From the IMG/VR virus record IMGVR_UViG_643348570_000002: a DNA stretch of 35,778 nucleotides; one strand, given 5' to 3'. A program made the position numbers and the translations under genes. Below the pieces are notes generated by a model, which saw nothing but the letters and a program-made list of their open reading frames with translations, was not told where the DNA came from and ran no database searches. Each line of letters opens with the position of its first letter. The first letter of the stretch is position 1. This stretch comes from an uncultured virus (IMG/VR IMGVR_UViG_643348570_000002) (Duplodnaviria; Heunggongvirae; Uroviricota; Caudoviricetes). Positions 3,116-16,306 of this stretch are shown here, one piece after another.

Positions 3116-3984
3116 TCCCCGAGGGCGATTTCCGCTTCATCGCGCTGGACGTGGAAACGGCCTGCAGCGACGCGGGTAGCATCTGCCAGATCGGACTGGC
3201 CTGTGTGTTCCCCGACAACCGGATCCACACCTTCTCGACGCTCGTGAACCCCGGCACCAGGTTCGACCCTTTCAACGTCCGGCTTCACGGCATCGGCCCT
3301 GACCATGTGTCCGGCGCGCTCCGATTCGATGAACTCCTCGATCACCTTTTCCCGCTTCTCTCACGGCATCATCTGGTCCAGCACAGCAACTTCGACAAAC
3401 AGGCCTTGAATGCGGCTTGTCGCTCGTGTGGGAGAGAGCCGCCGGATTTTCGCTGGGCGGACAGTGTCACTATCGCACGCCGGGCCTGGCCAGAACTGCT
3501 CAGAAATGGCGGTCATGGCCTCGGGAACCTGAAGCGAGTGCTCGGCTTGGACTTCAACCATCACGACGCCGGCGAAGACGCGCGCGCGGCCGCTCTGGTG
3601 GTCCTGCATGCTGAAACGCACCTCAACCTGACATTCGAAGAACTGATCAAACCGGCGAGGAAAAACCATCCAGCCGCCATCACGCGGGAGGGAGATCCAA
3701 CAGGCGCGCTCTCCGGCTCAGTCGTCGTGTTCACCGGCGCACTGAGTATGTCGCGCGAAGAGGCGGCGGCAGCGGCCGCGCGTGTAGGCATGGACGTCAA
3801 GTCCTCGGTTACGAACAAGACAACCTACCTGGTCGTCGGCGACCAGGATCTGAACGTCCTTGCCGGACACACGAAGAGCAGCAAGCACCGACGCGCCGAG
3901 GAGATGCAGAGCGCCGGCCACCCGATCCAGATAGTTGGTGAGACCGAGTTCAGGACGCTCGTGACCAACGCGGCGGTGTCCTGA
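3103..3984 (+). CDS. DEDDh 3'-5' exonuclease (DnaQ/epsilon-like) with C-terminal BRCT domain
   Basis: ExoI IALDVETA, ExoII HSNFD, ExoIII HHDAGEDARA; BRCT signature VVFTGALSMSREEA...TTYLVVG...K..A. An alternative start at 3112 gives an ATGA overlap. Confidence 0.88.
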   Translation: MRTMIPEGDFRFIALDVETACSDAGSICQIGLACVFPDNRIHTFSTLVNPGTRFDPFNVRLHGIGPDHVSGALRFDELLDHLFPLLSRHHLVQHSNFDKQALNAACRSCGREPPDFRWADSVTIARRAWPELLRNGGHGLGNLKRVLGLDFNHHDAGEDARAAALVVLHAETHLNLTFEELIKPARKNHPAAITREGDPTGALSGSVVVFTGALSMSREEAAAAAARVGMDVKSSVTNKTTYLVVGDQDLNVLAGHTKSSKHRRAEEMQSAGHPIQIVGETEFRTLVTNAAVS

Positions 3985-4190
3985 TATGCGACCGGTAGTC
4001 CCATCCGGTGGCGGAGCACGGTCGGTCGCTTCGAGCAGAACAATTGCCCCAGAAAGTAGACTAATGCCGGCTCTACACAGCTTCGAGGGCGCGGCCGATC
4101 TAGGCCCAAGCAGTGCGGCAAATGACGTCTGTGCTCTCAATTCTTATTGCTCTGATATTGAAGATATATTTTGATCCGGAGGCTTTGTTC

Positions 4191-5642
4191 ATGGGAAAAA
4201 TTCGAAATCCAATTAGGTTTTCAGAGCACTACGGGATCGATGGACAAGCGCTGGAAGATCGAGGCATCCTCGATCCTACTTTGAACGCCGACACGAGGCT
4301 TTTCATCGACCCTCTCTTGCTCGAAAATTCAAGTCACTCCGAAATATCAGTCGGCGCACGGCAGACCTACGAGAATCACTTTGGAACTATCATTAAGTTC
4401 CTCGCAAAAACAAAAGTCCCGAAAGACGTCGCATGGAATAGTGCGGCACGCCTTCTTTCTTTTCCAGAGATCAAGTGGACCTGTCTTGGCTACGGTGCAC
4501 AGTCAGTGGCGGGAAGCGGTTCAGGCTCAGAAATGACCGGCCACTATATTGAAACAGCGCGTCAGATCGTTGAGCTTGGGATTGAAGACCCTGATCTCTT
4601 CGTCGCTATGGCACTGTTCGAAAACGGTGTTGGTCCCGATCGTATCAGTGACATGACCGCAAATGTCATTCTGGGCGATTTGATCAAGCTTAACGAGCGT
4701 ATCCTTCCAGAGCTTGGCATTGCCACGCAGCCAATGACCATTGCGCTCAAGAACGGCAAAAGCCATTCCGGTCGATTGGCGGCGAACCCCTACATCAGTT
4801 CAGAAGACCCCGTTATCCTTGTTCCAAGCGATATACTGCGACATCTACCCATTGCTACCGATTGGTCCAGTGTCGCCGACGCCGCTTCAAAGAACGCTCA
4901 AATACGTTCGCGTGTGAACGACCAAATCGCGCAGATGTGGCAGGTCAAGAGCAGAAAAGACAAAGATGAAATCCGCCGTTGGGCATTGGCTGACAAGGCT
5001 TCCTTCGAAACATTCATGGAGATGCTGCATGGTGCGAATCCGAATGCCTATGACATGAATGGCGATCCTTTGGGTGAGGTATTCTGGCGCAAGATCGCAG
5101 CCGCCTTGGCCGAAGAAGAACCGTTGGCTATCGACCCACCTAGGAAGATGGATCTTGCAGGCGTCGAAATGGTGGTCGAGGCTATCATCGAGCAGTTTCG
5201 GTTCCTGATCGAAGACCGCCGCTTTTCCGAGGAGCTGTATTATTACGGGAAGCCTCGACCGGAGATTGCGGCGCAGCGCCTATTCTTTGCAGTTGCACAC
5301 AGCTACTGTAAAGCAAATGACCTTGATCTGACGCCCGAAGCAGAAACAGGAAATGGTCCAGTAGATTTTAAAGTGTCAGCTGGTTTTACTGGACGCGCCG
5401 TGGTGGAAATCAAGCTTTCAAGAAACTCCAAGCTGGTGGATGGGTACATAAAGCAACTCGAAACCTACAAAAGAGCCGAGGAAACGGTCTCGGGGTTCTA
5501 CGTGGTCGTCGATGTCGGGAAAATGGGCCAGAAGGATGAGCGCCTACTCGCGATAAGGAACGAGGCGAGTGCGAGAGGCGACATCGCTTCTCGGATTGAC
5601 TTTATCGACGGATCACGTCGCAAATCCGCCAGCAAACTGTAA
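4191..5642 (+). CDS. Low-GC hypothetical protein with C-terminal PD-(D/E)xK-like nuclease motif (483 aa); candidate defence protein
   Basis: GGAGG at 4178-4182 then ATG 4191, with an AT-rich upstream tract. Motif PEAETGNGPVDFKVS...VVEIKLS. Codon usage is visibly less GC-rich than the phage genes. Confidence 0.7.
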   Translation: MGKIRNPIRFSEHYGIDGQALEDRGILDPTLNADTRLFIDPLLLENSSHSEISVGARQTYENHFGTIIKFLAKTKVPKDVAWNSAARLLSFPEIKWTCLGYGAQSVAGSGSGSEMTGHYIETARQIVELGIEDPDLFVAMALFENGVGPDRISDMTANVILGDLIKLNERILPELGIATQPMTIALKNGKSHSGRLAANPYISSEDPVILVPSDILRHLPIATDWSSVADAASKNAQIRSRVNDQIAQMWQVKSRKDKDEIRRWALADKASFETFMEMLHGANPNAYDMNGDPLGEVFWRKIAAALAEEEPLAIDPPRKMDLAGVEMVVEAIIEQFRFLIEDRRFSEELYYYGKPRPEIAAQRLFFAVAHSYCKANDLDLTPEAETGNGPVDFKVSAGFTGRAVVEIKLSRNSKLVDGYIKQLETYKRAEETVSGFYVVVDVGKMGQKDERLLAIRNEASARGDIASRIDFIDGSRRKSASKL

Positions 5643-5698
5643 CGACGGCGAAGCCTCAGTGCATCGATCATGGTGGCTTAGGGCCGCCCCCCTCCCAT

Positions 5699-5967
5699 GG
5701 TTCCTCCCGGGCTCGATCCGTATACGGGGGGGCTGAGCGCGCAAGTTTTCCAGCGTCTGGCCTTTTCACCGGGGAATCCAGTTGGAAGCCACCCCAGCGG
5801 ACTTGCTGGAAATTCTGACTCTATATCAGATTCTTACGGGATTGCCCCGCTGGCCGAGGTGGATTCCACCGGGAAGCCAGGGAAGCCACCCAGCTGAATC
5901 CACTGGCCACCGAAGCCACCTGTGGAAGCCATTTGTGACGCAGCTTGCCAGAACGCATTGAATCCAC
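5699..5967 (+). promoter_or_regulatory. Candidate lambda-type cos packaging site (cosQ/cosN-like, repeated terminase-binding-like sites, IHF site)
   Basis: GGTTCCT(5699-5705)...GATCCGTATACGGGGGGGCTGAGCGCGCAAGTTTTC resembles lambda GGGTCCT...GATCCG...TACGGGGCGGCGACCTCGCGGGTTTTC. It is followed by about 9 GAA(G/T)CCA-type repeats and TATCAGATTCTTA (5824-5836), which matches IHF WATCARN4TTR. Confidence 0.6.
5773..5967 (+). repeat. Cluster of short direct repeats G(G)AA(G/T)CCA(C)
   Basis: Copies start at about 5773, 5784, 5861 (GGATTCCAC variant), 5872, 5881, 5896, 5912, 5924 and 5960. Confidence 0.8.
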
Positions 5968-5980
5968 GCGTAAAAATGGT

Positions 5981-6010
5981 TTGACAAAGCTGCCCCCCTT
6001 GACGTAGCAA
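5981..6010 (+). promoter_or_regulatory. Putative sigma70 late promoter
   Basis: Perfect TTGACA at 5981-5986 and weak -10 TAGCAA at 6005-6010 (18-nt spacer). A second TTGACG lies at 5999-6004. Confidence 0.4.
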
Positions 6011-6027
6011 GGAACCATCGAAGAATT

Positions 6028-6060
6028 GCGCCCGGAGGATCCCCTCGCGGGCGCTTTTGT
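6028..6060 (+). terminator. Intrinsic terminator-like hairpin in the late leader
   Basis: GCGCCCG-GAGG/ATCC loop/CCTC-g-CGGGCGC followed by TTTTGT. Confidence 0.6.
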
Positions 6061-6090
6061 GTTCCTCCTCCACATCCCGAGCCCCTCCCC

Positions 6091-7353
6091 ATGGACCTCG
6101 TCTTCGCGCCGAGCCAGATCGAGACCTGGCCGATCGAACGGCTGCGCCCCTATGCCCGCAATGCCAAGATGCATGGCGACGACCAGGTTGCGAAGATTGC
6201 CGCCAGCATGGCCAAGTTCGGCTGGACGGTGCCCTGCATGGTGGCCGACGACGGCGAACTGATCGCGGGCCATGGGCGCGTGCTGGCGGCCACTATGCTC
6301 GGCCTGACCGAGGTGCCGGTGATCCGGCTCAGCCATCTCGACGAGGCCGAACGCCGCGCCTACCGCATCGCGGACAACAAGCTCACGGAGCTCGGCGAAT
6401 GGGACGAAGCCCTGCTGCGCGACGAGATCGCGGGGCTGCTGGCCGAGGATTTCGACCTGTCGCTGCTCGGCATCAGCGACGATGATCTGGATGCGCTGCT
6501 GCGGGATCCGGAGGCGCTGGGCGAGGATAGCCCGGTCGAGCGCGAGGACGACATTCCTGAGTTGCCGGTCACGCCGGTGTCGGTGCCGGGCGACCTTTGG
6601 CAGCTCGGTGCGCACCGGCTGATCTGCGGCGACAGCACCGCGGCCGATGTGGTCGGGCGGCTGCTCGGGGATGTGGGCCCCCTGCTGATGGTGACCGACC
6701 CGCCCTATGGCGTGGAGTACGACCCCTCCTGGCGCAACCAGGCGGGGGCCGCGAAGACGAAACGCACCGGGAGGGTGCTGAACGACGACCGGGCAGACTG
6801 GCGCGAGGCTTGGGCGCTGTTCCCGGGTGACGTTGCCTATGTCTGGCACGGTGCGCTCCATGCGGCGACCGTGGCGGACAGCCTGGTGGCGGCGGGCTTC
6901 GCGATCCGCTCGCAGATCATCTGGGCCAAGGACCGGTTGGTCCTCAGCCGCGGCGATTACCACTGGCAGCACGAACCCTGCTAGTATGCCGTGCGTGCCA
7001 AGGGCAAGGGGCACTGGGCGGGGGACCGCAAGCAGACCACGCTGTGGCAGATCGCCAATCGAGATCAGGATGCCGACACCGTGCACGGCACGCAGAAACC
7101 GGTGGAATGCATGCGGCGCCCGATCCTGAACAACTCCAGCCCCGGCCAAGCCATCTATGAGCCCTTCATGGGATCCGGCACCACGCTGATCGCGGCCGAA
7201 ACCACCGGCCGGGTCTGCCTCGGCGTCGAGTTGAACCCGGCCTATGTCGACGTCGCCATCGAGCGCTGGCAGTCCTTCACGGGCGAGGAGGCGATGCTGG
7301 CGGAGGCCGGCGAGAGTTTCGCCGCCCTGAAAGCAAAGCGGCTCGCGGCATGA
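6091..7353 (+). pseudogene. ParB/Srx N-terminal domain fused to beta-class DNA methyltransferase (DPPY), interrupted by in-frame TAG at 6982-6984
   Basis: ParB motif LIAGHGRVLAA...RIADNKL, TDPPY, HGTQKPVE and YEPFMGSGTT. ORFs 6091-6984 and 6991-7353 are in the same frame (HEPC*YAVR). Confidence 0.85.
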
Positions 7354-8726
7354 ACGCGCCGCTCCTGCCCGGCCGGATCGAGCACTGGCCGCTGGTCCGT
7401 CTCCGCCCCTATGCCCACAACGCCAAGACCCACGACGCCGAGCAGGTGGCCAAGATTGCTGCCAGCATGGCCGAGTTCGGCTGGACCGTTCCCTGCCTTG
7501 TCGCCGCCGACGGCGAGCTGATCGCAGGCCATGGCCGCGTCCTGGCCGCAGCCCAGCTGGGGTTGGCCGATGCACCGGTCATCGTGCTGGATCATCTCAC
7601 CGACGCGCAGCGCAGGGCCTATCGCATCGCCGACAACAAACTCACGGAACTGGGCGGCTGGGACGAGGCGCTGCTGCTCGAGGAACTGCGCGGGTTGCTG
7701 GCAGAAGATTTCGACCTCGGGCTGATCGGCATCCCTGAGGATGAGCTCGACGCGCTGCTCAACGATGCCGATGACAATCGCGCGCCGATTGACGATGACA
7801 CGGCCGACACCATCCCCGAGCCCCCGGCGGAACCGATCACGCGACCGGGCGACATCTGGGCGCTGGGCGACCATCGGCTGATTTGCGGTGACGCGACTGA
7901 TCCGACCGTGGTGGCACGGTTGATGGACGGGGCGCAGGCGTCGCTGATGTTCACATCCCCACCCTATGCTCAGCAGCGCGACTATGGCGCGGCGAAGGAG
8001 AAGGTGGGCGATTGGGATGCGCTGATGCAAGGCGTCTTCGTCGCGGCACCCGTCACAGAGGCCGCTCAGCTGCTGGTGAATCTTGGCCTCGTCCACCGCG
8101 ATGGCGAGTGGATCCCGTATTGGGAAGGCTGGCTCGACTGGATGCGCGCGCAGGACTGGCGGCGGTTCGGCTGGTACGTCTGGGACCAGGGGCCCGGCCT
8201 GCCCGGTGGCTGGAACGGGCGGCTGGCCCCCTCGCACGAGTTCATCTTCCACTTCAACCGCCAGCCCCGCAAACCCAACAAGACGGTCGAAAGCAAGCAC
8301 GCAGGCGAAACCCTCGGCGGCGGTGGGCTGCGCGGGGCCGACGGCACGGTCCATCGCAAGACCGGCTTTGGCAACGCGATCCAGAGCCACCGCATCCCCG
8401 ACAGCGTCTTCCGCATCATGCGCCACAAGGGCGGGCTGGGCGCGGCCGGATCGCACCCAGCCGTGTTTCCGGTGGCGCTGGTCGAGGCGGTTCTGAAGGC
8501 CTTCACCGATCCCGGCGACCTGGTGTTCGAGCCCTTCTGCGGCTCCGGCACCCAGCTGATCGCCGCGGAACGCACTGGACGGCGCTGCTCTGCGGTGGAA
8601 CTGGACCCGGTCTATTGCGACGTCGCAGTGCGCCGGTGGGAGACGGCGACGGGGCGAGCGGCCCACCGGATCACCGAACAGGAGGAGGCGAGGAAACCGG
8701 CGCGCCGGTCGCGGAACCGAGCATGA
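7350..8726 (+). CDS. ParB/Srx domain fused to beta-class DNA methyltransferase (SPPY, probably N4-cytosine)
   Basis: Paralogous ParB N-terminus, FTSPPY, HPAVFPVAL and FEPFCGSGT; ATGA overlap with the previous gene. Confidence 0.88.
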   Translation: MNAPLLPGRIEHWPLVRLRPYAHNAKTHDAEQVAKIAASMAEFGWTVPCLVAADGELIAGHGRVLAAAQLGLADAPVIVLDHLTDAQRRAYRIADNKLTELGGWDEALLLEELRGLLAEDFDLGLIGIPEDELDALLNDADDNRAPIDDDTADTIPEPPAEPITRPGDIWALGDHRLICGDATDPTVVARLMDGAQASLMFTSPPYAQQRDYGAAKEKVGDWDALMQGVFVAAPVTEAAQLLVNLGLVHRDGEWIPYWEGWLDWMRAQDWRRFGWYVWDQGPGLPGGWNGRLAPSHEFIFHFNRQPRKPNKTVESKHAGETLGGGGLRGADGTVHRKTGFGNAIQSHRIPDSVFRIMRHKGGLGAAGSHPAVFPVALVEAVLKAFTDPGDLVFEPFCGSGTQLIAAERTGRRCSAVELDPVYCDVAVRRWETATGRAAHRITEQEEARKPARRSRNRA

Positions 8727-8932
8727 CGCAGTCGCGCCGCATGTCGCTGATCGAGGCCATCGCCAATGTCGCCGTGGGCTACGCGCTGGCAGTTGCCACG
8801 CAGATCGTGGTGTTCCCATGGTTTGGCCTGCACCCGAGCCTCGGTGAGAACCTGGCGCTGGGCGGGGTCTTCACCGCGATCTCCCTGATCCGGGGCTACG
8901 CGCTGCGCAGGCTGTTCGAGCGATTTCGTTGA
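8723..8932 (+). CDS. Small two-TM membrane protein (69 aa) typical after phage MTases
   Basis: ATGA overlap; MTQSRRMSLIEAIANVAVGYALAVATQIVVFPWFG...RGYALRRLFERFR has two hydrophobic segments. Confidence 0.75.
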   Translation: MTQSRRMSLIEAIANVAVGYALAVATQIVVFPWFGLHPSLGENLALGGVFTAISLIRGYALRRLFERFR

Positions 8933-8957
8933 CGTCGCGTTCGCAGTTCTCTACCTT
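8929..8957 (+). promoter_or_regulatory. sigma70-type promoter for the HNH unit
   Basis: TTGACG (8929-8934), 17-nt spacer, TACCTT (8952-8957). Confidence 0.55.
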
Positions 8958-8959
8958 TC

Positions 8960-9159
8960 CTTCAAACGAAGGCCCCGACAAAGGCTTTGACGGAGCAAAA
9001 GTTCCCTCAGGTTGGCAGGATCATCCCTGACGACATCGTTGTACGGACTGCGGAACCACGATCAATCGGGTCTCGCGCGAGCATGAGCTTCCCGCCGGGG
9101 AGCGCCCGCCTTGGGCGCCGCGCATTCGCTTCTCACGAAGTTGAATGGAGACCCTGTAG
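8960..9159 (+). ncRNA. Candidate structured RNA/leader upstream of the HNH gene
   Basis: Multibranch fold closed by GGGTCTC(9068-9074)/GAGACCC(9148-9154), with internal hairpins at 9087-9103, 9104-9116 and 9123-9147. Further stems: CCTTC/GAAGG (8959-8972) and TCAGG/CCTGA (9007-9030). Confidence 0.4.
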
Positions 9160-9555
9160 ATGGGAAAGCTGTCGAATATTCGTCGAACCAGGATGCTGGC
9201 TCAGGAGGGGCGATGCTACTACTGCGACCTGCCGATGTGGGATCCGGAACTGGGTCATGCCGTGCCGGAAATCTGCCGGGCACCCGCCATGCGGAGATAT
9301 CTCCGCTGCACCGCAGAGCACCTGCACCCTCGATCCGAGGGCGGTGCTGACACGCCGGGCAACATTGTCGCGGCATGCTGGTACTGCAACACAAGGCGCC
9401 ATCACAGGAAGGCGCCACCCTCCCCGGACGTCCATCGCGCGCGCGTCCAGGAAAGAATGGCACAAGGGAAATGGCTGGCCGCGCAGTTGAAACAGATCAG
9501 CGCATCGGTCGGCCCGTGCGCGAAGCTCCAACGGGGCGTGCCGCTGCGGCCATGA
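9160..9555 (+). CDS. HNH endonuclease (zinc-binding, 131 aa)
   Basis: QEGRCYYCD...TAEHLHPRSEGGADTPGNIVAACWYCNTRR, i.e. CxxC, EH..P...GG, N, CxxCN; GGAG RBS at 9147-9150. Confidence 0.88.
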   Translation: MGKLSNIRRTRMLAQEGRCYYCDLPMWDPELGHAVPEICRAPAMRRYLRCTAEHLHPRSEGGADTPGNIVAACWYCNTRRHHRKAPPSPDVHRARVQERMAQGKWLAAQLKQISASVGPCAKLQRGVPLRP

Positions 9556-10122
9556 TCAGCGGAGAGAGTAGACGGTCCCCCTGCCCTCGACCTTCTCGGC
9601 GGTGACAGGTAGGCCCAGTTTCTTCTTGAGCCCGCCGGAAATCAGGCCACGCACGCTATGTGCCAGCCAACCCGTCGCCTCGACGATCTCGGCGATCGAC
9701 GCGCCCTCGGGCCGCCGAAGGAGCGCGATGATCTGCGCCTGCTTGGTGCCTGCGCGGATGGTGACGGGCTTTGGCGCATCGGTGGCCTCGGTCGCCGGCG
9801 CGGGTTCTGCATCCGGTTGTCGGTTCGCCTTCCGCGCGCTGGCGACGGCACTGGCGGCGACCGGCTCGATTCCGATGGCCTCCAGCCCGGCTTCGGTGGC
9901 GATCAGCGTGGTGCCGTGGCCATCGCCGGTCTCGCGCCAGAGCGGCTCGCCCCGGCGCAGGTCGGCATCGACCTCTTCCAGCCAGCCGCGCGTGATCATC
10001 GCGGTGACGGCCTTCTGCGCGGCGGCGCCGTGCAGGCCTTCGGGCAGCGGCATCGCCAGATTACCGGGGCGCGAGGCCGCGCGGCTGAGGATGAGGCTCT
10101 GGGTGTCGGTGAGCTTGGGCAT
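9556..10122 (-). CDS. DUF3489-like protein with C-terminal winged HTH
   Basis: GTKQAQIIALLRRPEGASIAEIVEATGWLAHSVRGLISGGLKKKLGL...GRGTVY; GGAG RBS upstream. Confidence 0.8.
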   Translation of the reverse strand: MPKLTDTQSLILSRAASRPGNLAMPLPEGLHGAAAQKAVTAMITRGWLEEVDADLRRGEPLWRETGDGHGTTLIATEAGLEAIGIEPVAASAVASARKANRQPDAEPAPATEATDAPKPVTIRAGTKQAQIIALLRRPEGASIAEIVEATGWLAHSVRGLISGGLKKKLGLPVTAEKVEGRGTVYSLR

Positions 10123-10216
10123 GGGTCGTCTCCATGGTCAGGGCCGCGATCATCGCCGGCCTTCCACGACCCCAGGCCGCGCTGGCGCGCGGCAGGAGTT
10201 CCGGCGGTTCCGGAGA

Positions 10217-10486
10217 TCAGCGGGCGTGTTCGCCCTCGCCGAAAGCGCTGTCGGTGATGCGCTTCAGGAGGCTGGCGTAGTGCTCAAGCGTGCCGACCAT
10301 GGCCCAGCCGACCTCGTCAGGGTGGCAGTTGAAATGGTCGTCGCTGAGCGCCTGCAGGCGGGCGAGCATCTCGTCGATTTCGGCCTTCTTGCCGATGAAG
10401 GCGTTCAGCGCGGCTTCGCGGTTGCGCCGCGCCTTCTCGGCGCGGAGCTCAAAGCGCGGGGTGGTGATCGGGTTGAGGCGGGTCAT
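10217..10486 (-). CDS. Hypothetical phage protein (helical, 89 aa)
   Basis: RBS GGAG (complement of 10496-10499); ALNAFIGKKAEIDEMLARLQALSDDHF...; GC3-rich coding bias. Confidence 0.75.
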   Translation of the reverse strand: MTRLNPITTPRFELRAEKARRNREAALNAFIGKKAEIDEMLARLQALSDDHFNCHPDEVGWAMVGTLEHYASLLKRITDSAFGEGEHAR

Positions 10487-10588
10487 CCTTGGTGGCTCCG
10501 TGGTGAGTTGCATCGTTTCCGTGCGACAACCATCGCTCCGGCGCGGCGATTATCGTAGGCAAATCATAGCAATATCAGTGCTTTCTGA

Positions 10589-10951
10589 TCATCCGATCCG
10601 ATGATGATCGATCAGCGCCGCCTGTTCCGCCTCATGACGCTGGGCGGCGTCGGGCGGGTCGCGGCGCGCGTTGACGATGGCCACGAACAGCGCGCGGGCA
10701 ACGGCGGCGACCTCGTCCGCCCCGGCGCTGGTCAACTCGGCGTCGTGGATGGCAATGGCCTCGCCCAGATCGGTCAGCGCATAGAGCGTCGCGAACTCCG
10801 CCTCGGGCGGGTCGCAGGTGATGGTGTCCCGGTCGTGCTCGGACACGGCGACGCTCCGGCAGAAGCGCAGGTCGAAGCCCATGGCGCATTCGCGGCGGAT
10901 CAGGTCGTCGAGGGTCTCGCCCTCGGGCAGGCAGTTGAAGGATTGCGTCAT
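10589..10951 (-). CDS. Hypothetical protein (MTQSFNCLPEGETLDDL...)
   Basis: ATGA overlap with 10948-11253; coding-like composition from 10951. Confidence 0.7.
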   Translation of the reverse strand: MTQSFNCLPEGETLDDLIRRECAMGFDLRFCRSVAVSEHDRDTITCDPPEAEFATLYALTDLGEAIAIHDAELTSAGADEVAAVARALFVAIVNARRDPPDAAQRHEAEQAALIDHHRIG

Positions 10952-11253
10952 GATGGGAGCTCCTCGGTCTGCGCAGCCTCGGGATCCAGTTCGACCCACG
11001 CCCCGTCCTGCCAGACATAAAGGTGGCAGAGTTCGCGGGTCGGGAGCGGCAGGATCGGGGGCTCGCGGGGAGGGTCGAAGCAGTCGAGTTCGTCGGCCCG
11101 CACCTGCCGGATTTCCTTCGCGGCAAGGATGTCCTCGGGCGTCCACGGGGCCAGCGCGGGCAACATGTGCGAGGGGTAGCCGTCGAAATGGCAATAGATG
11201 TGGGCCCATTGCTCGGGTCCGATCCGGATGGCGATCTGCGCGCGGGTGCTCAT
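10948..11253 (-). CDS. Hypothetical protein with YCHxDGYP motif
   Basis: MSTRAQIAI...HIYCHFDGYPSHM...LYVWQDGAW is a recognisable small mobile-element protein pattern. Confidence 0.75.
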   Translation of the reverse strand: MSTRAQIAIRIGPEQWAHIYCHFDGYPSHMLPALAPWTPEDILAAKEIRQVRADELDCFDPPREPPILPLPTRELCHLYVWQDGAWVELDPEAAQTEELPS

Positions 11254-11263
11254 GTCCGCGCCC

Positions 11264-11482
11264 TCAGATCAGCTGCAGGCTGGCCAGCATGGTGCTGGCA
11301 GCGGCGAGCTGGCCGGTCGGCAGTTCGATCTTGATGTGCGAGATGACGTCCGAAGCCTCGGCCGCGATCCCCTCGTCGCGCAGCGCGGCCTCGATCATGC
11401 GGGCGGCCGCGTCGGGGCCCTTGAGGTTCAGCGGGTCCGGCAGCGCGGCGTGATCGATGCGGATGGTGGTGATGGCGGTCAT
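11264..11482 (-). CDS. Hypothetical protein (72 aa)
   Basis: AAAGGA RBS; sits in the tightly packed leftward cluster. Confidence 0.65.
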   Translation of the reverse strand: MTAITTIRIDHAALPDPLNLKGPDAAARMIEAALRDEGIAAEASDVISHIKIELPTGQLAAASTMLASLQLI

Positions 11483-11494
11483 GGGCCTGTCCTT

Positions 11495-11707
11495 TCAGGG
11501 TTGGGTGTCAGCGGGTCCTGCGCGGCGTCCGGCCTCGAAGGCTTCCTCGAGCGCGGCGCGGATGGCCCAGACGGCGACGTCGTGGAAATCCAGCCGGTCC
11601 CAGTTGCGGGTCTCGAGCGTCTCGAGGTGGAACTGGCGCTGGGCGATCTCAAGCAGCCGGGCGTCGCGGGCGGCGTTGGGAGCTGCGGGTTTGCGGGCGC
11701 GCGCCAT
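11495..11707 (-). CDS. DUF6900-like small protein
   Basis: IAQRQFHLETLETRNWDRLDFHDVAVWAIRAALEEAFEAG; GGAGG RBS. Confidence 0.75.
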   Translation of the reverse strand: MARARKPAAPNAARDARLLEIAQRQFHLETLETRNWDRLDFHDVAVWAIRAALEEAFEAGRRAGPADTQP

Positions 11708-11709
11708 GG

Positions 11710-11928
11710 TCAGTCCTCCCAGCGGTGTTCGGGGTGGGTGGTCCGCGCGCGGGCTTCCTCGCGCATCATCTCCCGGGCCTTGGCCACCTCGACCATCCCG
11801 TCCGCCTGGCTCATCCGCCCGGACATCACCTCGTCCATCACCCAGTTCACCCGCTCCTGCGCGGGGCTGGTGTGGTTGCGCCACCCTTCGCTCATCGAGC
11901 TGTGCCCCATTCTCTCCTGTGCGCGCAT
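11710..11928 (-). CDS. Hypothetical protein (72 aa)
   Basis: GGAGAG RBS; first gene of the leftward cluster. Confidence 0.65.
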   Translation of the reverse strand: MRAQERMGHSSMSEGWRNHTSPAQERVNWVMDEVMSGRMSQADGMVEVAKAREMMREEARARTTHPEHRWED

Positions 11929-12068
11929 GGCTCTCTCCGATCCTTGTCCAAGGGGTGCGATGCACCCGTTTGCCTCGCACCATGAATCGCTCTATCCGGG
12001 AGTGTAATCAACTGAATAAGCAGAGCATTTCCGTTTAATTCCAATATCTTGAGGGTCGCCGCAGAGCC

Positions 12069-12617
12069 ATGGAAGGTATGTCCGAACGCGCCTATGCCGC
12101 CCATTCCGGCCTCTCGCGCGGGGCGGTGCAGAAGGCGCGGAAGAACGGGCGGCTGGTGCTCTTTGCCGATGGGTCGATCAACGCGGCCGCCTCGGATGCA
12201 CGGCGCGGCGCAATGACTGATCCGGACCAGCAGATGCGGTCGCGCGGCGGGTCGGGTTCTGGCGACGGTGCCGTATCCGGCCCCGGCGACAGCACCTCCT
12301 ATCTGAAGGCGCGCACGGCGCTGACCGTCTATCAGGCGCAGGAACGACAGCTGTCGATCCAGCGCAAGAAGGGCGTGCTGGTCGACCGCGCGCGCGCCGA
12401 GACGCTGGTGTTCCGCCTCGCGCGTCAGGAGCGCGATACATGGGTCACATGGCCCACCCGCGTGGCCGCGCTGATGGCCGCGCAATTATCCGCAGATATG
12501 GAGAAGGCATCGGGGGTGCCCGTGACGATCGAGACTGCGATCCTGCAGAGGGTGCTGGAAACCCATGTCCGAGAGCAGCTCGACGCCCTCGCAGACCTCC
12601 GGGTCAGCCTCGGTTGA
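12069..12617 (+). CDS. Terminase small subunit (Nu1-like)
   Basis: N-terminal HTH (MSERAYAAHSGLSRGAVQKA), coiled coil and GVLVDR; immediately precedes the large terminase. Confidence 0.8.
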   Translation: MEGMSERAYAAHSGLSRGAVQKARKNGRLVLFADGSINAAASDARRGAMTDPDQQMRSRGGSGSGDGAVSGPGDSTSYLKARTALTVYQAQERQLSIQRKKGVLVDRARAETLVFRLARQERDTWVTWPTRVAALMAAQLSADMEKASGVPVTIETAILQRVLETHVREQLDALADLRVSLG

Positions 12618-14586
12618 ACAGGAGGATTTGAGCGCCGATCTCGACCTCGGCTTCGACGGCGCGGAAGACATCCTGCGCGCCTGGCGGCGGGGGATGCGCC
12701 CGGACGCCGATCTGACGGTGTCGGAATGGGCGGATGCGCATCGCTGGCTCAGCTCGCGCGCCTCGGCCGAGCCCGGGCGGTACCGCACCGCGCGCACGCC
12801 CTATCTGCGGGCCATCATGGATGCGCTGTCCCCGAGCCACCCGGCGCAGCGGATCAGCTTCATGAAGGCTGCGCAGGTCGGCGCGACCGAGGCGGGGAAC
12901 AACTGGATCGGCTTCGTGATCCATCACGCGCCGGGGCCCATGCTGGCCGTGCTGCCGACCGTCGAGATGGCCAAGCGCACCTCGCGCGGCCGGATCGACC
13001 CGCTGATCGAGGACAGCTCGGCGCTGAAGGAGCGCGTCAGCCCCGCCCGCTCGCGCGACGCGGGTAACTCGATGCTCTCAAAAGAGTTCCCCGGCGGCAT
13101 TCTGGTGCTGACCGGGGCCAACAGCGCGACCGGCCTGCGCTCGATGCCGGCGCGCTATGTGTTTCTCGACGAGGTCGACGCCTATCCGGCCTCGGCCGAC
13201 GAGGAAGGCGACCCGGTCACGCTGGCCGAGGCGCGCACCACCACCTTCGCGCATCGGCGCAAGGTGTTCATGGTCTCGACGCCCACGATCCGGGGGCTGA
13301 GCCGGATCGAGCGGGAGTTCGAGGCCAGCGACCAGCGGCGCTATTTTGTCCCCTGCCCGCATTGCGGTCACAGGCAATGGCTGCAGTTCGAGCGGCTGCG
13401 CTGGGACAAGGGCCGACCGGAAACGGCCGCCTATCACTGCGCGGGCTGCGAGCGCCCCATCGCGGAGCATCACAAGACCGGGATGCTGGCGCGGGGCGAA
13501 TGGCGTGCGACTGCGGTCAGTGCAGACCCCAGGGCCATCGGCTTCCACTTGTCTGCCCTCTATTCTCCGATCGGCTGGAAGAGCTGGGAGCAGATCGCGC
13601 GGGACTGGCTGGCCGCGCAAGGCTCCGACGAGATGCTGCGCGCGGCGCGCAACACGCTCCTGGGCGAGACCTGGATCGAAAGCGGTGAGGCGCCGGAATG
13701 GCAGCGGCTGGCGGATCGGCGCATCGCCTTCCCGGCACAGATCCCGGCAGGTGGGCTGTTCCTGACCGCCGGGGCCGATGTGCAGAAGGACCGGATCGAG
13801 GTCGATGTCTGGGCATGGGGCCGTGGGCTGGAAAGCTGGCTCGTCGATCACATCGTGATCCCTGGCGGGCCGGATGATCCGGCCTGCTGGGACAAGCTGA
13901 CTGCGCTGCTGAGTCAGACATGGGCGCACGAGAATGGCGCGTTCATGACGCTGGCGAAGCTCGCGATCGACACCGGCTACGAGTCGGCGGCCGTCTATGC
14001 CTGGGCGCGCAAGCAGGGCATCGCGCAGGTGGCACCGGTGAAGGGCTTGGAAGGCTTCAACCGGGCCACACCCGTTTCGGGGCCGACCTTCGTAGATGCA
14101 ACGTTGAACGGGCGGAAGCTGAAGCGCGGGGCGCGGCTCTGGACGGTGGCCACGGCAACGTTCAAGGCCGAGACCTATCGGTACCTCCGCATCGAACGAC
14201 CGTCCGAACCAGATGCCCCCGTAGCGGCTGGCACGATCCACCTGCCCGACTGGGCCGACAGCGAATGGCTCAAGCAGCTGGTGGCCGAGCAGCTGGTCAC
14301 GATCCGCGACCGGCGCGGCTATGCCCGCCAGGAATGGCAGAAGCTGCGCGAGCGCAACGAGGCGCTCGACGCCCGGGTCTATGCGCGCGCCGCCGCGTGG
14401 ATCCTCGGCGCGGACCGTTTTGATGAGCGCATGTGGCGGCAGCTGGAGAAGCAGGCCGGCATCGACAGCGCAGCCGCCGCGGCTGCCCCTGCAGAGCAAG
14501 TAAAACCTGATGCGCCAGAAGCCGGGCGCATCACCGCACCCCGGCGGCGCGGCTGGAAGATCAGCACGCCCCGATACATGGAATGA
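12565..14586 (+). CDS. Terminase large subunit, lambda GpA family
   Basis: RTPYLRAIMD, Walker A MKAAQVGAT, Walker B VFLDEVD, STPT, CPHC/CAGC zinc motif, GADVQ nuclease, RNEALD. The start is uncertain. Confidence 0.95.
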   Translation: MSESSSTPSQTSGSASVEQEDLSADLDLGFDGAEDILRAWRRGMRPDADLTVSEWADAHRWLSSRASAEPGRYRTARTPYLRAIMDALSPSHPAQRISFMKAAQVGATEAGNNWIGFVIHHAPGPMLAVLPTVEMAKRTSRGRIDPLIEDSSALKERVSPARSRDAGNSMLSKEFPGGILVLTGANSATGLRSMPARYVFLDEVDAYPASADEEGDPVTLAEARTTTFAHRRKVFMVSTPTIRGLSRIEREFEASDQRRYFVPCPHCGHRQWLQFERLRWDKGRPETAAYHCAGCERPIAEHHKTGMLARGEWRATAVSADPRAIGFHLSALYSPIGWKSWEQIARDWLAAQGSDEMLRAARNTLLGETWIESGEAPEWQRLADRRIAFPAQIPAGGLFLTAGADVQKDRIEVDVWAWGRGLESWLVDHIVIPGGPDDPACWDKLTALLSQTWAHENGAFMTLAKLAIDTGYESAAVYAWARKQGIAQVAPVKGLEGFNRATPVSGPTFVDATLNGRKLKRGARLWTVATATFKAETYRYLRIERPSEPDAPVAAGTIHLPDWADSEWLKQLVAEQLVTIRDRRGYARQEWQKLRERNEALDARVYARAAAWILGADRFDERMWRQLEKQAGIDSAAAAAAPAEQVKPDAPEAGRITAPRRRGWKISTPRYME

Positions 14587-14807
14587 CCGGAACCCCGATG
14601 ACCCTCGATGATCTCAAGGCCCGCCACAGCGCGCTGCTGGCCGCGCGCTACAGCGGTACGCGCTCGGTCAGCTATGACGGCAAGAGCATCAATTATGGCT
14701 CGGATGCCGAGCTGGCCGCCGCGATTGGCGATATCGAGCGCCGGATCGCCGCGCTGGAACGGACCGGCAGGCGCGTGTTGCGCCCCTTCGCCGTGAAGGA
14801 CCTGTGA
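14583..14807 (+). CDS. Head completion protein, gpW-like
   Basis: SGTRSVSYDGKSINY...ELAAAIGDIE; lies between terminase and portal. Confidence 0.85.
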   Translation: MTGTPMTLDDLKARHSALLAARYSGTRSVSYDGKSINYGSDAELAAAIGDIERRIAALERTGRRVLRPFAVKDL

Positions 14808-16306
14808 TGGCCGGCGCGATGAACTGGCGTCAGCGCCTCGGGGCCTTCATCGGCGGGTTTGATGCCGGCCAGCACCATCGCCGACTGCGCGGCTTCCGCG
14901 CGACCCGCGCCCATGTCAATGCGTTGATCGCAGCCGCCGGGCCCGACATCACCGCCCGCGCCCGCTGGCTCGTGCGCAACAACGGCTATGCGGTGAACGC
15001 AGTCGAAAGCTGGGCCGCCAACACCGTGGGCGACGGGATCAAGCCGATATCAAAGATCCGGGATGCCGCGCGCAAGGAGGAGCTGCAGCGGCTCTGGCTC
15101 GCCTGGACCGACGAAGCCGATGCCGAGGGGCTGACCGACTTCTACGGGCTCCAGCGCCGCGCCGCGCGCGAGGTGTTCATGGCGGGCGAGGTGTTCTTCC
15201 GGATCCGCATGCGCCGCGCGGGCGACGGGCTGACAGTGCCGCTGCAGCTGCAGATGCTGCCTGCCGAGAGGCTGCCGCTCGAGCAGACCGGCACGGCGGC
15301 CAATGGCAACGTGATCCGCCAGGGGATCGAGTTCGACAGGATCGGACGCCGCGTGGCCTACCACTTCCTGCGCCGCCATCCCGGCGACAGCACCGATCCG
15401 GGGCTGGCGGGAGAGGTAGTACGGGTGCCAGCAGCCGAGGTGATCCATGTGATCGACCCGGTCGAGGGCGGCCAGCTGCGGGGCGTGTCCAAACTGGCCC
15501 CGGCCATCGTCAAGCTGTTCCTGCTCGATCAGTACGACGACGCCGAGCTGGACCGAAAAAAGGTCGCGGCGATGTACGCGATGTTCGTGACCTCGCCTGC
15601 GCCAGAGAACCCGCTCGCACCTGCCGAGGATGACGAGGTGCCTGATGGGGTCGAGATCAGCCCGGGCCAGATCGTTCGGCTCGACCCGGGCGAGGATGTC
15701 ACCGTGGGTCAGCCCGCCGACAGCGGCGCGACCTACGAGCCGTTCCAGTACCGCACGCTGCTGCAGATATCAGCCGCGCTGGGCATCCCCTATCCCTATC
15801 TCGCCAATGACATGGTGAAGGGGAACTTCTCGAACTCGCGCCTGGCGCTGATCGAATTCCGGCGCCGCGTCTCGGCCTGGCAGCATTCGGTGATGGTCTG
15901 GCAGCTTTGCCGACCCGTCTATGCCCGCTGGATGGATGCGGCCGTGCTGTCGGGCGCACTGACCCTGCCCGGCTACGAGGCCAATCGCGCAAGTCTCCAG
16001 ACCGCCGACTGGCTGCCGACCAAGTGGGACTGGGTTGACCCCCTCAAGGACGCCAATGCCGAGATCGCGCAGATCGAGGCGGGGCTTAAATCCCGCACCC
16101 AGGCCATCGCCGAGCGCGGCTACGACGCCGAACAGGTCGACCGCGAAATCGCCGCGGAGCGGTCCCGTGAACGCGCACTGGGTCTCGACTTCCGTCGCCC
16201 CGGCTCGCCCGCGCAGGGCGTGCAGGCCGTGCCGCAAAGCGACGACGACACCGACACAACCGATGACGCGGAGGACCGCCCGCGCCCAGACGAGGATCAG
16301 ACCTGA
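14807..16306 (+). CDS. Portal protein, lambda family
   Basis: RARWLVRNN, GIEFDRIGRRVAYH, GQLRGVS, NFSNSR and WDWVDPLKD. Confidence 0.95.
   Translation: MAGAMNWRQRLGAFIGGFDAGQHHRRLRGFRATRAHVNALIAAAGPDITARARWLVRNNGYAVNAVESWAANTVGDGIKPISKIRDAARKEELQRLWLAWTDEADAEGLTDFYGLQRRAAREVFMAGEVFFRIRMRRAGDGLTVPLQLQMLPAERLPLEQTGTAANGNVIRQGIEFDRIGRRVAYHFLRRHPGDSTDPGLAGEVVRVPAAEVIHVIDPVEGGQLRGVSKLAPAIVKLFLLDQYDDAELDRKKVAAMYAMFVTSPAPENPLAPAEDDEVPDGVEISPGQIVRLDPGEDVTVGQPADSGATYEPFQYRTLLQISAALGIPYPYLANDMVKGNFSNSRLALIEFRRRVSAWQHSVMVWQLCRPVYARWMDAAVLSGALTLPGYEANRASLQTADWLPTKWDWVDPLKDANAEIAQIEAGLKSRTQAIAERGYDAEQVDREIAAERSRERALGLDFRRPGSPAQGVQAVPQSDDDTDTTDDAEDRPRPDEDQT

What the first reader, a model, noticed from the sequence alone, without database searches (positions are those of the whole stretch)
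8929..9555. Self-contained unit: promoter, ~200-nt highly structured RNA and a small HNH nuclease (candidate RNA-associated nuclease or RNA-controlled toxin/defence system)
Seen: a good sigma70 promoter (TTGACG-17-TACCTT), then an unusually long non-coding stretch in an otherwise overlap-packed phage. It folds by eye into several hairpins and a cloverleaf-like domain. The closing stem GGGTCTC/GAGACCC, together with CATTC/GAATG, buries the GGAG RBS of a 131-aa Zn-HNH gene. Established: HNH proteins pair with ncRNAs in HEARO/OMEGA systems, and phage c4/CI-type cloverleaf RNAs control toxic genes. This protein is far too small for IscB and shows no RuvC motifs. Inference: an undescribed ncRNA-HNH module, either a ribonucleoprotein nuclease or a translationally locked nuclease released on infection.
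Basis: partly seen in the sequence, partly recalled or inferred. Interest (0 to 1): 0.8.

Follow-up and report, generated by a model that had tools for sequence, protein, structure and literature searches.

The report
Conserved structured leader RNA of HNH cassette
A small self-contained gene cassette (own promoter, a roughly 195-base many-hairpin leader RNA and a minimal HNH nuclease gene) sits in this prophage and, in other bacteria, between ordinary chromosomal genes; the RNA is better conserved than the protein, hides the gene's ribosome-binding site, and matches no catalogued RNA family.

Summary
Window 8929-9555 is a discrete cassette: promoter-like hexamers, a ~195-nt leader and a 131-aa HNH gene. 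It is absent from sister prophages at the same site. The leader core (9041-9147) is 84% identical in nucleotides (median) where the HNH coding sequence is 67.5%. It folds into a hairpin, a perfect four-way junction and a further hairpin; 93-97% of cells pair, against 34-50% in slid controls, and 16-17 pairs show compensatory change, against about 5 in shuffles. It is not coding, not a tRNA and not in Rfam 15. A covariance model finds it only directly upstream of this HNH clade. That holds for 5 of 5 hits in genome scans and 23 of 23 assessable RNA-first hits in viral contigs. The same promoter-leader-HNH unit also lies as a solo insertion among housekeeping genes. The ribosome-binding site is paired in all clades, with different sequences. 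Best reading: a cis-acting translational lock or switch on a mobile nuclease gene (0.55). An RNA-protein partnership remains untested.

The parts
8929..8957 (+). Promoter-like element of the cassette: -35 TTGACG (8929-8934, overlapping the stop codon of the upstream DUF7220 gene), a 17-nt spacer, and -10 TACCTT (8952-8957).
   Evidence: Sequence. Not called by the consensus scan. TTGAC plus a TAnnnT-like hexamer is kept in 17 of 17 aligned cassettes, including solo chromosomal ones whose DNA further upstream is unrelated. Among 16 close relatives the spacer varies while the hexamers stay. The transcription start is inferred, not shown.
8965..9040 (+). 5' half of the leader: hairpin H1 (8969-8974 with 8983-8988), hairpin H1b (about 8987-9010) and hairpin H2 (9011-9034).
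   Evidence: Minimum-energy fold (z -2.43 for 8933-9066). In the 17-sequence leader alignment I saw the stems change sequence while staying complementary (read by eye; no formal pair count was made for this half).
9041..9147 (+). Conserved core of the leader RNA. It comprises a single-stranded stretch (ACGGACUGCG, 9043-9052) and helix Pa (9052-9059 with 9068-9074). A four-way junction follows: P2 (9075-9079/9119-9123) enclosing P3 (9080-82/9087-89), P4 (9090-93/9098-9101) and P5 (9102-07/9113-18). Hairpin P6 (9124-9132/9137-9146) closes the core.
   Evidence: Alignment A2 of 56 sequences: 96.6% of cells paired against 34-48% when slid, and 16 pairs with changes on both sides against 4.6 in shuffles, with 0 of 500 shuffles reaching it. 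Covariance model R1 scores 120.7 bits here. Frequent G-U pairs on this strand. The + strand folds better than the - strand, z -3.83 against -2.53.
9068..9154 (+). Alternative closing helix P1: GGGUCUC (9068-9074, the same strand that forms the 3' side of Pa) pairs with GAGACCC (9148-9154). This covers GAG of the Shine-Dalgarno GGAG (9147-9150).
   Evidence: Present in the minimum-energy fold of the window. It is used in 18 of 53 distinct homologues, while Pa is used in 33 of 53. 79.8% of cells pair, and 4 of 7 pairs show change on both sides. It is in the fold of 14 of 16 close relatives from either assumed 5' end.
9160..9555 (+). HNH endonuclease gene, 131 aa, with two CxxC pairs and the motif TAEHL...N...H. 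The last ~20 residues are variable and poorly modelled.
   Evidence: PF01844 at E 1e-9. Closest solved relative is 4H9D, by sequence E 6.1e-6 and by fold, Foldseek top hit with probability 1.00. 90 homologues found. Invariant residues are listed.
8923..9567 (+). Extent of the cassette as an insertion relative to sister prophages: it lies between the convergent genes DUF7220 (8723-8932, +) and DUF3489 (9556-10122, -).
   Evidence: Homology to cassette-less relatives stops at 8920-8924 and resumes at 9568-9611. Those relatives hold 40, about 111, about 122, 325 or 1250 bp there. Contigs from an RNA library join 8920/8922 to 9614/9616 (table 5).

Best explanation
Window 8929-9555 is a compact, portable transcription unit: its own promoter, a ~195-nt leader RNA and a minimal HNH nuclease gene. 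The leader is the 5' untranslated region of the HNH mRNA and acts in cis on translation.

Proposed mechanism (inferred):
- A conserved 7-nt strand (GGGUCUC, 9068-9074) can pair downstream with GAGACCC. Together with the base of hairpin P6, this buries the Shine-Dalgarno sequence: the off state, and the default fold in the window.
- The same strand can instead pair upstream with GGAACC (helix Pa), which leaves the ribosome-binding site free: the on state.
- The four-way junction and the invariant single strand GGACUGCG are the likely docking site for whatever shifts this balance. That could be the HNH protein itself (autoregulation), another protein, or a small ligand.
- The effect is to keep a potentially harmful nuclease at low or conditional levels.

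Shown here: the RNA structure, its strand, its strict linkage to the gene, the occlusion of the ribosome-binding site, and the portability of the cassette. Inferred: that the two helices alternate in vivo, that translation is the controlled step, and the identity of the trigger.
For: 1. Real RNA structure. 93.0-96.6% of cells pair against 33.7-50.1% in slid controls. 16-17 pairs have changes on both sides against about 5 in shuffles, with 0 of 500 shuffles reaching that.
2. Selection on the RNA rather than on a peptide.
- Core nucleotide identity to the window has a median of 0.84, against 0.675 for the HNH coding sequence. The core is higher in 43 of 46 loci, and in 35 of 35 loci with coding identity below 0.75.
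- The distance from the invariant CGG to the start codon takes all three values mod 3 (29/13/11 of 53).
- 24 of 56 rows carry an in-frame stop.
3. Placement as a 5' UTR. The model hits end 10-25 nt before the start codon in all loci. No U-tract or terminator lies between P6 and the ATG. Contigs from RNA libraries span leader into gene: X1 covers 8974-9193 at 100% identity and X2 covers 8700-9199. These are contigs only, so this is weak.
4. Strict linkage. 5 of 5 genome-scan hits have the HNH directly downstream (the scans covered 151, 151 and 147 genomes). Of 24 RNA-first pattern hits in viral contigs, 23 lie on contigs already found through the HNH, and the other is cut off by its contig end. 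45 of the 80 genome loci and 32 of the 80 viral loci found through the HNH carry the RNA at E < 0.01.
5. The ribosome-binding site is paired.
- P1 is in the minimum-energy fold in 18 of 53 homologues.
- It is in the fold of 14 of 16 close relatives.
- Clear compensatory versions exist, for example CGGACUUC with GGAGUUCG in L049.
- In Rhizobiales- and Sphingomonadales-type copies the site is paired by different sequences: GUCC/GGAC, AUCC/GGAU, UACC/GGUA.
6. Competing helix. Pa is 97.5% paired, with changes on both sides at 3 of 6 pairs. The two constrained folds differ by 3 kcal/mol or less in 29 of 53 sequences (rows; that script stopped with an error after printing them).
7. Precedent. Phage homing-endonuclease genes such as I-TevI, segB and Aeh1 mobE are held in check by RNA structures that sequester the ribosome-binding site (PMC2988022, passages of sections 11-14 read). 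IS200 tnpA is repressed by mRNA structure (PMC4513863, abstract in listing only).
Against: - No transcript ends, no expression data and no binding data exist. The RNA-library evidence is from assembled contigs, which cannot exclude DNA carry-over.
- P1 is weak or absent in some clades (the L122 group, L046, L034, L023, L064) and pairs in only 79.8% of cells.
- Two conformers within a few kcal/mol are common in any GC-rich leader, so bistability is not demonstrated.
- A simple lock needs one hairpin. A four-way junction whose stems and loops are conserved in sequence suggests a further, unexplained role.
- A T4-style switch, in which the gene's own promoter would omit the inhibitory strand, was tested and not supported. 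The predicted state is the same from a 5' end at 8933 or at 8965 in 16 of 16 sequences.
Confidence: 0.55

Rival explanations
1. The RNA is a working partner of the HNH protein, not only a regulator. After transcription, and perhaps processing, it binds the nuclease as a scaffold, cofactor or targeting RNA, so the cassette is a two-part RNA-protein nuclease. It would resemble the transposon-borne IscB/IshB-omega-RNA systems, or be a new kind.
For: - The RNA is more conserved than the protein and never found without it, as is typical of RNA-protein machines.
- The architecture, a structured RNA directly 5' of an HNH ORF in a compact portable unit, parallels IscB. An HNH-only lineage, IshB (about 180 aa), is on record as linked with omega RNAs (PMC11610941, PMC13284715; passages read).
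- Stems and loops are conserved in sequence, as expected for protein contacts.
- The protein carries a conserved basic C-terminal helical extension.
Against: - No match to HEARO or any other Rfam family.
- The IscB model matches the HNH core only: profile positions 206-243, 30 bits against a cut-off of 175.
- No IS200/605 transposase among 54 neighbour proteins of 16 loci, nor among the proteins scanned from window 168-19342.
- The conserved promoter lies inside the cassette, so the transcript cannot carry a flank-derived guide.
- No unstructured variable segment of guide length lies in or beside the core.
- One copy per genome in all 8 genomes where it was counted.
Confidence: 0.15
2. The conserved structure acts at the DNA level. 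It would form a single-stranded or extruded branched DNA that the HNH nuclease recognises or nicks, serving the spread or maintenance of the cassette (a homing or insertion signal).
For: - The cassette is portable. It shows presence/absence at one site in sister prophages and in one genus, where G459 and G466 hold 56 bp in place of about 797 bp.
- It lies as a solo copy between unrelated housekeeping genes in 16 loci.
- Small HNH enzymes of this type are nickases (4H9D title), and one PHROG hit is annotated as endonuclease VII.
- The junction has no unpaired bases.
Against: - Pairs such as G-U are frequent on the + strand only and would be A-C mismatches on the other strand. A one-strand DNA form is not excluded by this.
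- The structure abuts and pairs with the ribosome-binding site in every clade, which a DNA signal would not need.
- I noticed no terminal repeats or target duplication at the junctions, from reading the junction sequences without a repeat search.
Confidence: 0.1
3. It is a ligand-sensing riboswitch that turns the nuclease on in response to a cellular metabolite or signal.
For: A conserved multi-helix domain followed by an expression platform with two mutually exclusive helices.
Against: - It is found upstream of one gene family only, unlike ligand-sensing classes that control a pathway.
- The junctions have no unpaired conserved pocket.
- The most conserved unpaired bases lie in a 5' tail and in hairpin loops.
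Confidence: 0.08
4. It is an independent small RNA gene that regulates other phage or host messages and merely lies next to the HNH gene.
For: The 5' UTR of IS200 tnpA is processed into regulatory RNAs (PMC5435999, abstract in listing only), so a leader can have a second life.
Against: No terminator lies between the RNA and the ORF. The RNA is always linked to the HNH. No second copy or obvious complementary site was found in the window.
Confidence: 0.05

Closest known systems
RNA structures that sequester the ribosome-binding site of phage homing-endonuclease genes (T4 I-TevI, I-TevII, I-TevIII and segB; Aeh1 mobE)
   Same: A nuclease gene inserted between conserved phage genes, with presence/absence among relatives. 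An mRNA structure pairs the Shine-Dalgarno sequence (PMC2988022, passages read; window).
   Different: Those are single hairpins, relieved by a late promoter placed inside the structure. Here a ~195-nt conserved multi-domain RNA with a four-way junction is used. The predicted state does not depend on the assumed 5' end. The protein has no extra DNA-binding domain. The cassette also occurs outside phages.
IscB / IshB with omega RNA (HEARO RNA; OMEGA systems of IS200/605)
   Same: A structured RNA directly upstream of, and strictly linked to, an HNH-bearing ORF in a compact portable unit. IshB is an HNH-only lineage of about 180 aa (PMC11610941 and PMC13284715, passages).
   Different: No HEARO match. 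Only the HNH core matches the IscB model. No IS200/605 transposase nearby. The promoter lies inside the unit and there is no guide-like segment. 131 aa.
Small phage HNH nickases next to cos and terminase (Geobacter Gme HNH 4H9D, HK97 gp74 type)
   Same: Closest solved relative by sequence and fold: a small ββα-metal fold with two CxxC pairs. In this prophage family the gene keeps a fixed place 1-2.5 kb before the small terminase gene. PMC3592412 states that many prophages encode such enzymes next to cos and terminase (abstract in listing only).
   Different: Not adjacent to terminase here: the minus-strand block 9556-11928 (five genes from my composition-based gene list) lies between them. In 16 solo loci no terminase matched by tblastn and the scanned neighbours are housekeeping genes. 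No leader RNA is reported for that class in what I saw.
IS200 tnpA leader
   Same: A ~0.6-0.7 kb unit whose only ORF is kept nearly silent by 5' UTR structure that hides the ribosome-binding site (PMC4513863, abstract in listing only; the size is recalled).
   Different: The ORF there is a Y1 transposase, with subterminal hairpins and many copies. Here the ORF is an HNH nuclease, single-copy, and I noticed no terminal repeats.
Phage morons
   Same: An independent promoter-gene unit inserted between two genes that are adjacent in related prophages. The concept itself is recalled, not from a call.
   Different: No terminator follows the gene in the window: the stop codons of HNH and DUF3489 abut. 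The same unit recurs in chromosomes with its leader intact.

Membership tests
Any Rfam 15 family (including HEARO/omega RNA, tRNA-like, known ribozymes and riboswitches) | Covariance-model score at or above the family's gathering threshold | tested here: not met
   0 matches in the whole window at gathering. With E up to 10 on 8700-9700 there were only 3 sub-threshold matches, none within 9041-9147. No tRNA or tmRNA.
IscB / IshB OMEGA system | HNH nuclease domain | tested here: met
   PF01844 at E 1e-9. IscB model positions 206-243 match.
IscB / IshB OMEGA system | N-terminal PLMP domain and the other IscB-specific parts | tested here: not met
   Only the HNH core aligns to the NCBIfam IscB model, at 30.1 bits against a cut-off of 175. 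No IshB sequence was at hand for a direct comparison.
IscB / IshB OMEGA system | IS200/605 setting (Y1 transposase nearby or in the genome, subterminal hairpin ends) | tested here: not met
   No Y1 transposase among the proteins scanned from window 168-19342, nor among 54 neighbour proteins of 16 loci. I noticed no terminal repeats. Genome-wide presence of such a transposase was not tested.
IscB / IshB OMEGA system | RNA with a variable guide segment taken from the flank | tested here: not met
   The conserved promoter lies inside the cassette. The region 5' of the core is made of hairpins.
Free-standing homing endonuclease gene | Nuclease gene present or absent at one site between conserved genes | tested here: met
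   Sister prophages hold 40-1250 bp of other DNA at the site. Empty sites occur in G459 and G466.
Free-standing homing endonuclease gene | Extra DNA-binding or targeting domain, and cleavage of the empty allele | not testable with these tools
   The 131 aa comprise the HNH core plus a basic helix. No further Pfam domain. Cleavage needs an experiment.
Terminase-associated phage HNH (gp74 / 4H9D type) | Small two-CxxC HNH fold | tested here: met
   4H9D is the best match by sequence (E 6.1e-6) and by fold.
Terminase-associated phage HNH (gp74 / 4H9D type) | Gene adjacent to the terminase or portal genes and the cos site | tested here: not met
   The small terminase gene starts at 12069, with the minus-strand block 9556-11928 (five genes from my composition-based gene list) in between. 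The 16 solo loci gave no terminase match by tblastn, and the neighbours scanned are housekeeping genes.
Riboswitch | Conserved structured domain plus alternative-pairing expression platform | tested here: inconclusive
   Structure and two competing helices are seen. Alternation in vivo is not shown.
Riboswitch | Control of genes of a shared pathway, and a ligand | tested here: not met
   Only this HNH gene lies downstream. A ligand is not testable here.

The most novel reading that the evidence does not exclude
The cassette is a minimal, previously unrecognised kind of mobile RNA-protein element. In it, a ~195-nt structured RNA and a ~115-130-aa HNH nuclease work together. The RNA would bind the nuclease as scaffold, cofactor or specificity element, in addition to locking its translation, and the pair would promote its own spread or retention between convergent genes in prophages and chromosomes of Proteobacteria. 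Beta- and gammaproteobacterial relatives of the HNH carry other leader architectures built on the same logic.
Probability: 0.12. Interest if true: 0.9.

Novelty: new variant of a known kind. Interest (0 to 1): 0.62.

Why it matters
Structures that hide the ribosome-binding site of selfish nuclease genes are known, but only as simple hairpins in T4-like phages. This case differs in several ways:
- A large leader supported by covariation, with a perfect four-way junction, is conserved across Rhodobacterales, with weaker model matches in loci from Rhizobiales and Sphingomonadales.
- The RNA is conserved more strongly than the enzyme it precedes.
- It travels with the gene as a ~0.6-kb unit into prophages and into chromosomal intergenic sites.

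This yields a new, well-defined RNA motif for the catalogues. It also gives a tractable system for asking how a minimal HNH nuclease is controlled or targeted. Finally, it tests whether RNA-nuclease partnerships exist below the size of IscB and IshB.

Tried and rejected
- Coding N-terminal extension. Three database proteins (P0012, P0029, P0046) carry the translated leader as an extension. Rejected: the frame is not kept (29/13/11 of 53 mod 3) and 24 of 56 rows have in-frame stops.
- tRNA or tRNA-like element: none.
- Known RNA family: none. Also none for the leaders of 20 other HNH loci, apart from a BjrC1505 sRNA and a tRNA elsewhere in those loci.
- T4-style control by promoter position: the predicted state is the same from 5' ends at 8933 and 8965 in 16 of 16 sequences. 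A long-range pairing of 8939-8949 with GGACUGCGGAAC in the window's fold is not kept in L103, L104 or L108 (by eye).
- Pseudoknot between the 5' CCGG and the P4 loop CCGG: no consistent covariation (by eye).
- cos-site reading. Several contigs end inside or near the leader (L106, L114, L118, L021, L022), but at differing positions. This is better explained by assembly breaks at a repeat shared among related phages.
- Cultured phages: no match to 8700-9600 in 50,697 phage records.
- Metagenome pattern scan: 120 stretches matched a 15-specified-base pattern, 80 were fetched, and 0 matched the model, so all were chance hits.
- Defence-system models: only weak hits.
- RNA-library contigs cover the region in 4 of 4 runs laid (X1, X2, X4, X5). 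They cannot show transcription, ends or strand.
- Earlier findings of this scan: three look-ups, nothing returned.
- The summary lines of the script failed; only its printed rows are used. The '<' and '>' constraint symbols were assigned from the fact that the '<' energy equals the unconstrained fold that contains P1 in the window.
Full report
**Setting.** The window is a prophage of a Rhodobacterales bacterium. Its head and packaging module is lambda-like: small terminase 12069-12617, large terminase 12565-14586, portal, protease, decoration protein and major head protein. The nearest public contigs are titled Roseovarius, Rhodovulum and Rhodobacteraceae. Two ParB-methyltransferase genes and a small DUF7220 gene (8723-8932, +) lie upstream of the finding. 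Downstream lies a converging DUF3489 gene (9556-10122, -) that heads a minus-strand block reaching 11928.

**The observation.**
- The 131-aa ORF at 9160-9555 is an HNH nuclease (PF01844, E 1e-9).
- Folding energy alone is equivocal for the whole leader (243 nt, z -1.68, 12 of 200 shuffles as good).
- It is clear for the 3' domain 9066-9156 (z -3.83, 0 of 200). It is weaker for 8933-9066 (z -2.43, 4 of 200) and on the opposite strand (z -2.53 and -0.26).
- The consensus promoter scan did not call the TTGACG-17-TACCTT pair.

**The cassette is a discrete insertion.** Sister prophages in the nearest held genome and its relatives keep DUF7220 and DUF3489. Between them they hold only 40 bp (L012), about 111 bp (L003), about 122 bp (L004), 325 bp (L010) or 1250 bp of other DNA (L002). 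One copy (L001) carries the same 645-bp block. The cassette-less copies L003, L004 and L010 have a GC-rich terminator-like hairpin at that place.

**Comparative evidence for the RNA.** The HNH protein has 90 homologues in the protein collection. I fetched 160 loci encoding relatives.
- BLASTN of the leader found 74 loci in which window 9036/9041-9154 is kept at 73-99% identity, although many of the proteins are only 47-60% identical.
- Measured pairwise, the core is 0.84 identical to the window (median) against 0.675 for the first 330 nt of the coding sequence. The core is higher in 43 of 46 loci, and in 35 of 35 loci whose coding identity is below 0.75.
- The stretch is not a conserved peptide. 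The distance from an invariant CGG to the start codon takes all three values mod 3 (29, 13 and 11 of 53 distinct sequences), and 24 of 56 rows have an in-frame stop. This explains as annotation artefacts the three database proteins that carry the translated leader as an N-terminal extension.

**Structure.** On an alignment of 56 sequences (53 distinct), RNAalifold and pair counting support the following parts:
- helix Pa (9052-9059 with 9068-9074);
- a five-pair stem P2 closing three hairpins P3, P4 and P5 with no unpaired junction bases;
- hairpin P6.

With Pa, 96.6% of cells pair, against 33.7-48.2% when the partners are slid by 1-3 columns. Sixteen pairs show changes on both sides against 4.6 ± 1.4 in shuffles, and 0 of 500 shuffles reach the observed value. 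P1 itself is 79.8% paired, with 4 of 7 pairs changed on both sides. G-U pairs are common on the + strand (for example 36, 30, 20 and 13 sequences at four pairs), which fixes the strand as that of the HNH gene.

**The 5' half of the leader is also part of the unit.** In an alignment of 17 full leaders I saw three things (by eye):
- the -35 TTGAC and a TAnnnT-like -10 are kept in all 17;
- three further hairpins (H1, H1b, H2) change sequence while staying complementary;
- DNA upstream of the -35 is unrelated between loci.

TTGAC lies 210-235 nt before the start codon in 16 of 18 solo loci by a simple search. The start of transcription itself is not shown.

**Linkage.**
- A covariance model of the core (R1) hit 45 of the 80 genome loci and 32 of the 80 viral loci at E < 0.01. 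Every hit is on the HNH strand and ends 10-25 nt before the start codon.
- It also reached weaker copies in loci whose contig titles name Rhizobiales and Sphingomonadales taxa: L082, L087, L090, L057, L076, L089 and L070. A further weak copy, L007, lies in a genome of the nearest genome's own genus.
- Scans that did not start from the protein gave 3 of 151 genomes (family), 1 of 151 (class) and 3 of 147 (genus). These are five distinct genomes, each with one copy and each with the HNH gene directly downstream.
- A pattern from the RNA alone found 24 places in viral contigs. Of these, 23 are contigs already found through the HNH, and one is cut off 56 nt after the match.

**The ribosome-binding site.**
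- In the window's fold, GGGUCUC pairs with GAGACCC, and the base of P6 ends one base before it, so GGAG (9147-9150) is buried.
- Across 53 distinct homologues the shared strand pairs downstream (P1) in 18 minimum-energy folds and upstream (Pa) in 33.
- The two constrained folds differ by 3 kcal/mol or less in 29 of 53 (rows).
- In 14 of 16 close relatives P1 is in the fold, whichever 5' end is assumed.
- In the distant copies the ribosome-binding site is again paired, but by other sequences placed right after P2: GUCC/GGAC, AUCC/GGAU, UACC/GGUA.

Occlusion of the ribosome-binding site is therefore the most widely kept functional feature. A competing upstream helix is well conserved in the Rhodobacterales group.

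**Portability.**
- In many prophages the order DUF7220 - RNA - HNH - DUF3489(-) - small and large terminase is kept, even at 40-60% protein identity.
- In 16 other loci the cassette has no phage neighbours. The flanking genes include ribosomal protein L19 and a DEAD-box helicase (L049), a ketoacyl synthase and an enoyl-ACP reductase (L060), polynucleotide phosphorylase (L046), a histidine-biosynthesis gene (L044), a 5'-nucleotidase (L043) and others.
- Homology among 18 such loci runs from at most about 265 nt before the start codon to the 3' end of the ORF. The C-terminal tails differ.
- In the genus of L049, all 13 genomes keep the left flank. Two of them (G459, G466) hold 56 bp where L049 holds about 797 bp, again between convergent genes and beside a GC-rich terminator hairpin.
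- One copy per genome was seen in all 8 genomes where it was counted.

**The protein.** The closest solved relative is the Geobacter Gme HNH nicking endonuclease 4H9D, by profile (E 6.1e-6) and by fold. The AlphaFold model has mean pLDDT 80.6, and 4H9D is the Foldseek top hit with probability 1.00, followed by Cas9 HNH domains. The IscB model matches the HNH core only. Defence-system models give nothing convincing.

**Relatives with other leaders.** HNH homologues from Xanthomonadales and other beta/gammaproteobacterial loci lack this RNA but have their own conserved leaders.
- One class has three hairpins after a GCGCGATAA box: 22 predicted pairs, 8 of them with compensatory change.
- Another has the form CUGGUNCCCG-hairpin-CGGGRCUUC, followed by GGAGYCCC before the start codon. 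The CUUC strand can therefore pair with the ribosome-binding site (by eye).

None is in Rfam. Their neighbours are varied and seldom phage structural genes. This suggests that a structured, occluding leader is a general trait of this HNH family.

**Expression.** Contigs assembled from RNA libraries cover the region. X1 covers 8974-9193 at 100% identity, X2 covers 8700-9199 and 9175-9700 at about 93%, and X5 covers it at depth 115-127. Contigs cannot show strand, ends or true transcription, so this is only compatible with a leader-plus-gene transcript.

**Interpretation.** The most economical reading is a cis-acting leader that keeps translation of a potentially harmful, portable nuclease gene low or conditional. 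It would do so by pairing the ribosome-binding site, with a competing helix and a conserved junction domain that probably receive a signal. Precedents are the sequestering structures of T4-type homing-endonuclease genes (PMC2988022, passages read) and of IS200 tnpA (PMC4513863, abstract in listing). This model does not explain why so elaborate and sequence-conserved a domain is needed. That gap leaves room for the bolder reading, that RNA and nuclease act together. The nearest known comparison is the IscB/IshB-omega-RNA systems. Every membership feature I could test for these, apart from the HNH domain itself, was not met.

**Novelty in print.** The motif matches no Rfam 15 family. Full-text searches for an HNH-linked RNA motif returned no paper on an HNH-linked RNA motif of this kind in their listings. 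The word 'HNH' does not occur in the main text of the two large motif surveys. Their supplements were not examined.

Noticed in passing
Loci L051-L081, L131, L160 (about 135 nt before the HNH start): Xanthomonadales-type relatives of the HNH carry a different conserved leader. A GCGCGATAA box is followed by three hairpins: 22 predicted pairs, 8 with compensatory change. It is not in Rfam.
   Followed up: partly
Loci L061, L084, L085, L091, L128-L130, L135, L140, L149, L152-L157, L164, L165, L173: A third leader type has the form CUGGUNCCCG-hairpin-CGGGRCUUC, then GGAGYCCC just before the start codon. The CUUC strand can pair with the ribosome-binding site, and the CGGG strand can pair either upstream or downstream. 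This is the same logic as Pa/P1 in the window, read by eye only.
   Followed up: partly
window 6091-6984 and 6991-7353: The first of two ParB-methyltransferase paralogues is in two ORFs (297 aa and 120 aa) separated by a stop and 6 nt. Together they cover one PHROG methyltransferase profile (positions 31-322 and 328-444). The same split appears in relatives at over 90% identity.
   Followed up: no
window 9553-9558: The stop codons of the HNH gene (+) and the DUF3489 gene (-) abut with no spacer or terminator, so convergent transcripts would overlap. Cassette-less relatives have a GC-rich bidirectional terminator-like hairpin at this place.
   Followed up: partly
L049 2653-2694; empty sites in L336 and L337: A ~35-nt GC-rich hairpin (GCCGCCCC-loop-GGGGCGGC) lies at the left junction of the solo cassette. 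It recurs at many places in those genomes in both orientations. Similar hairpins mark the empty site in the prophages. It may be a preferred insertion neighbourhood or simply a common terminator.
   Followed up: no
L082 1342-1476: An Rfam BjrC1505 alphaproteobacterial sRNA (83.2 bits) lies about 240 nt downstream of the HNH gene in an Afifella-labelled contig.
   Followed up: no
window 8920/8922 joined to 9614/9616 in run X5: Contigs in a sludge RNA library join DUF7220 directly to DUF3489, skipping 693 bp. Cassette-less relatives therefore coexist with cassette-bearing ones in that sample.
   Followed up: no
L048 (about 2983-3291): A Fuscibacter copy of the HNH lacks the N-terminus (match from residue 7; database protein of 86 aa) and has no leader RNA upstream. 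It looks like a decayed cassette.
   Followed up: no
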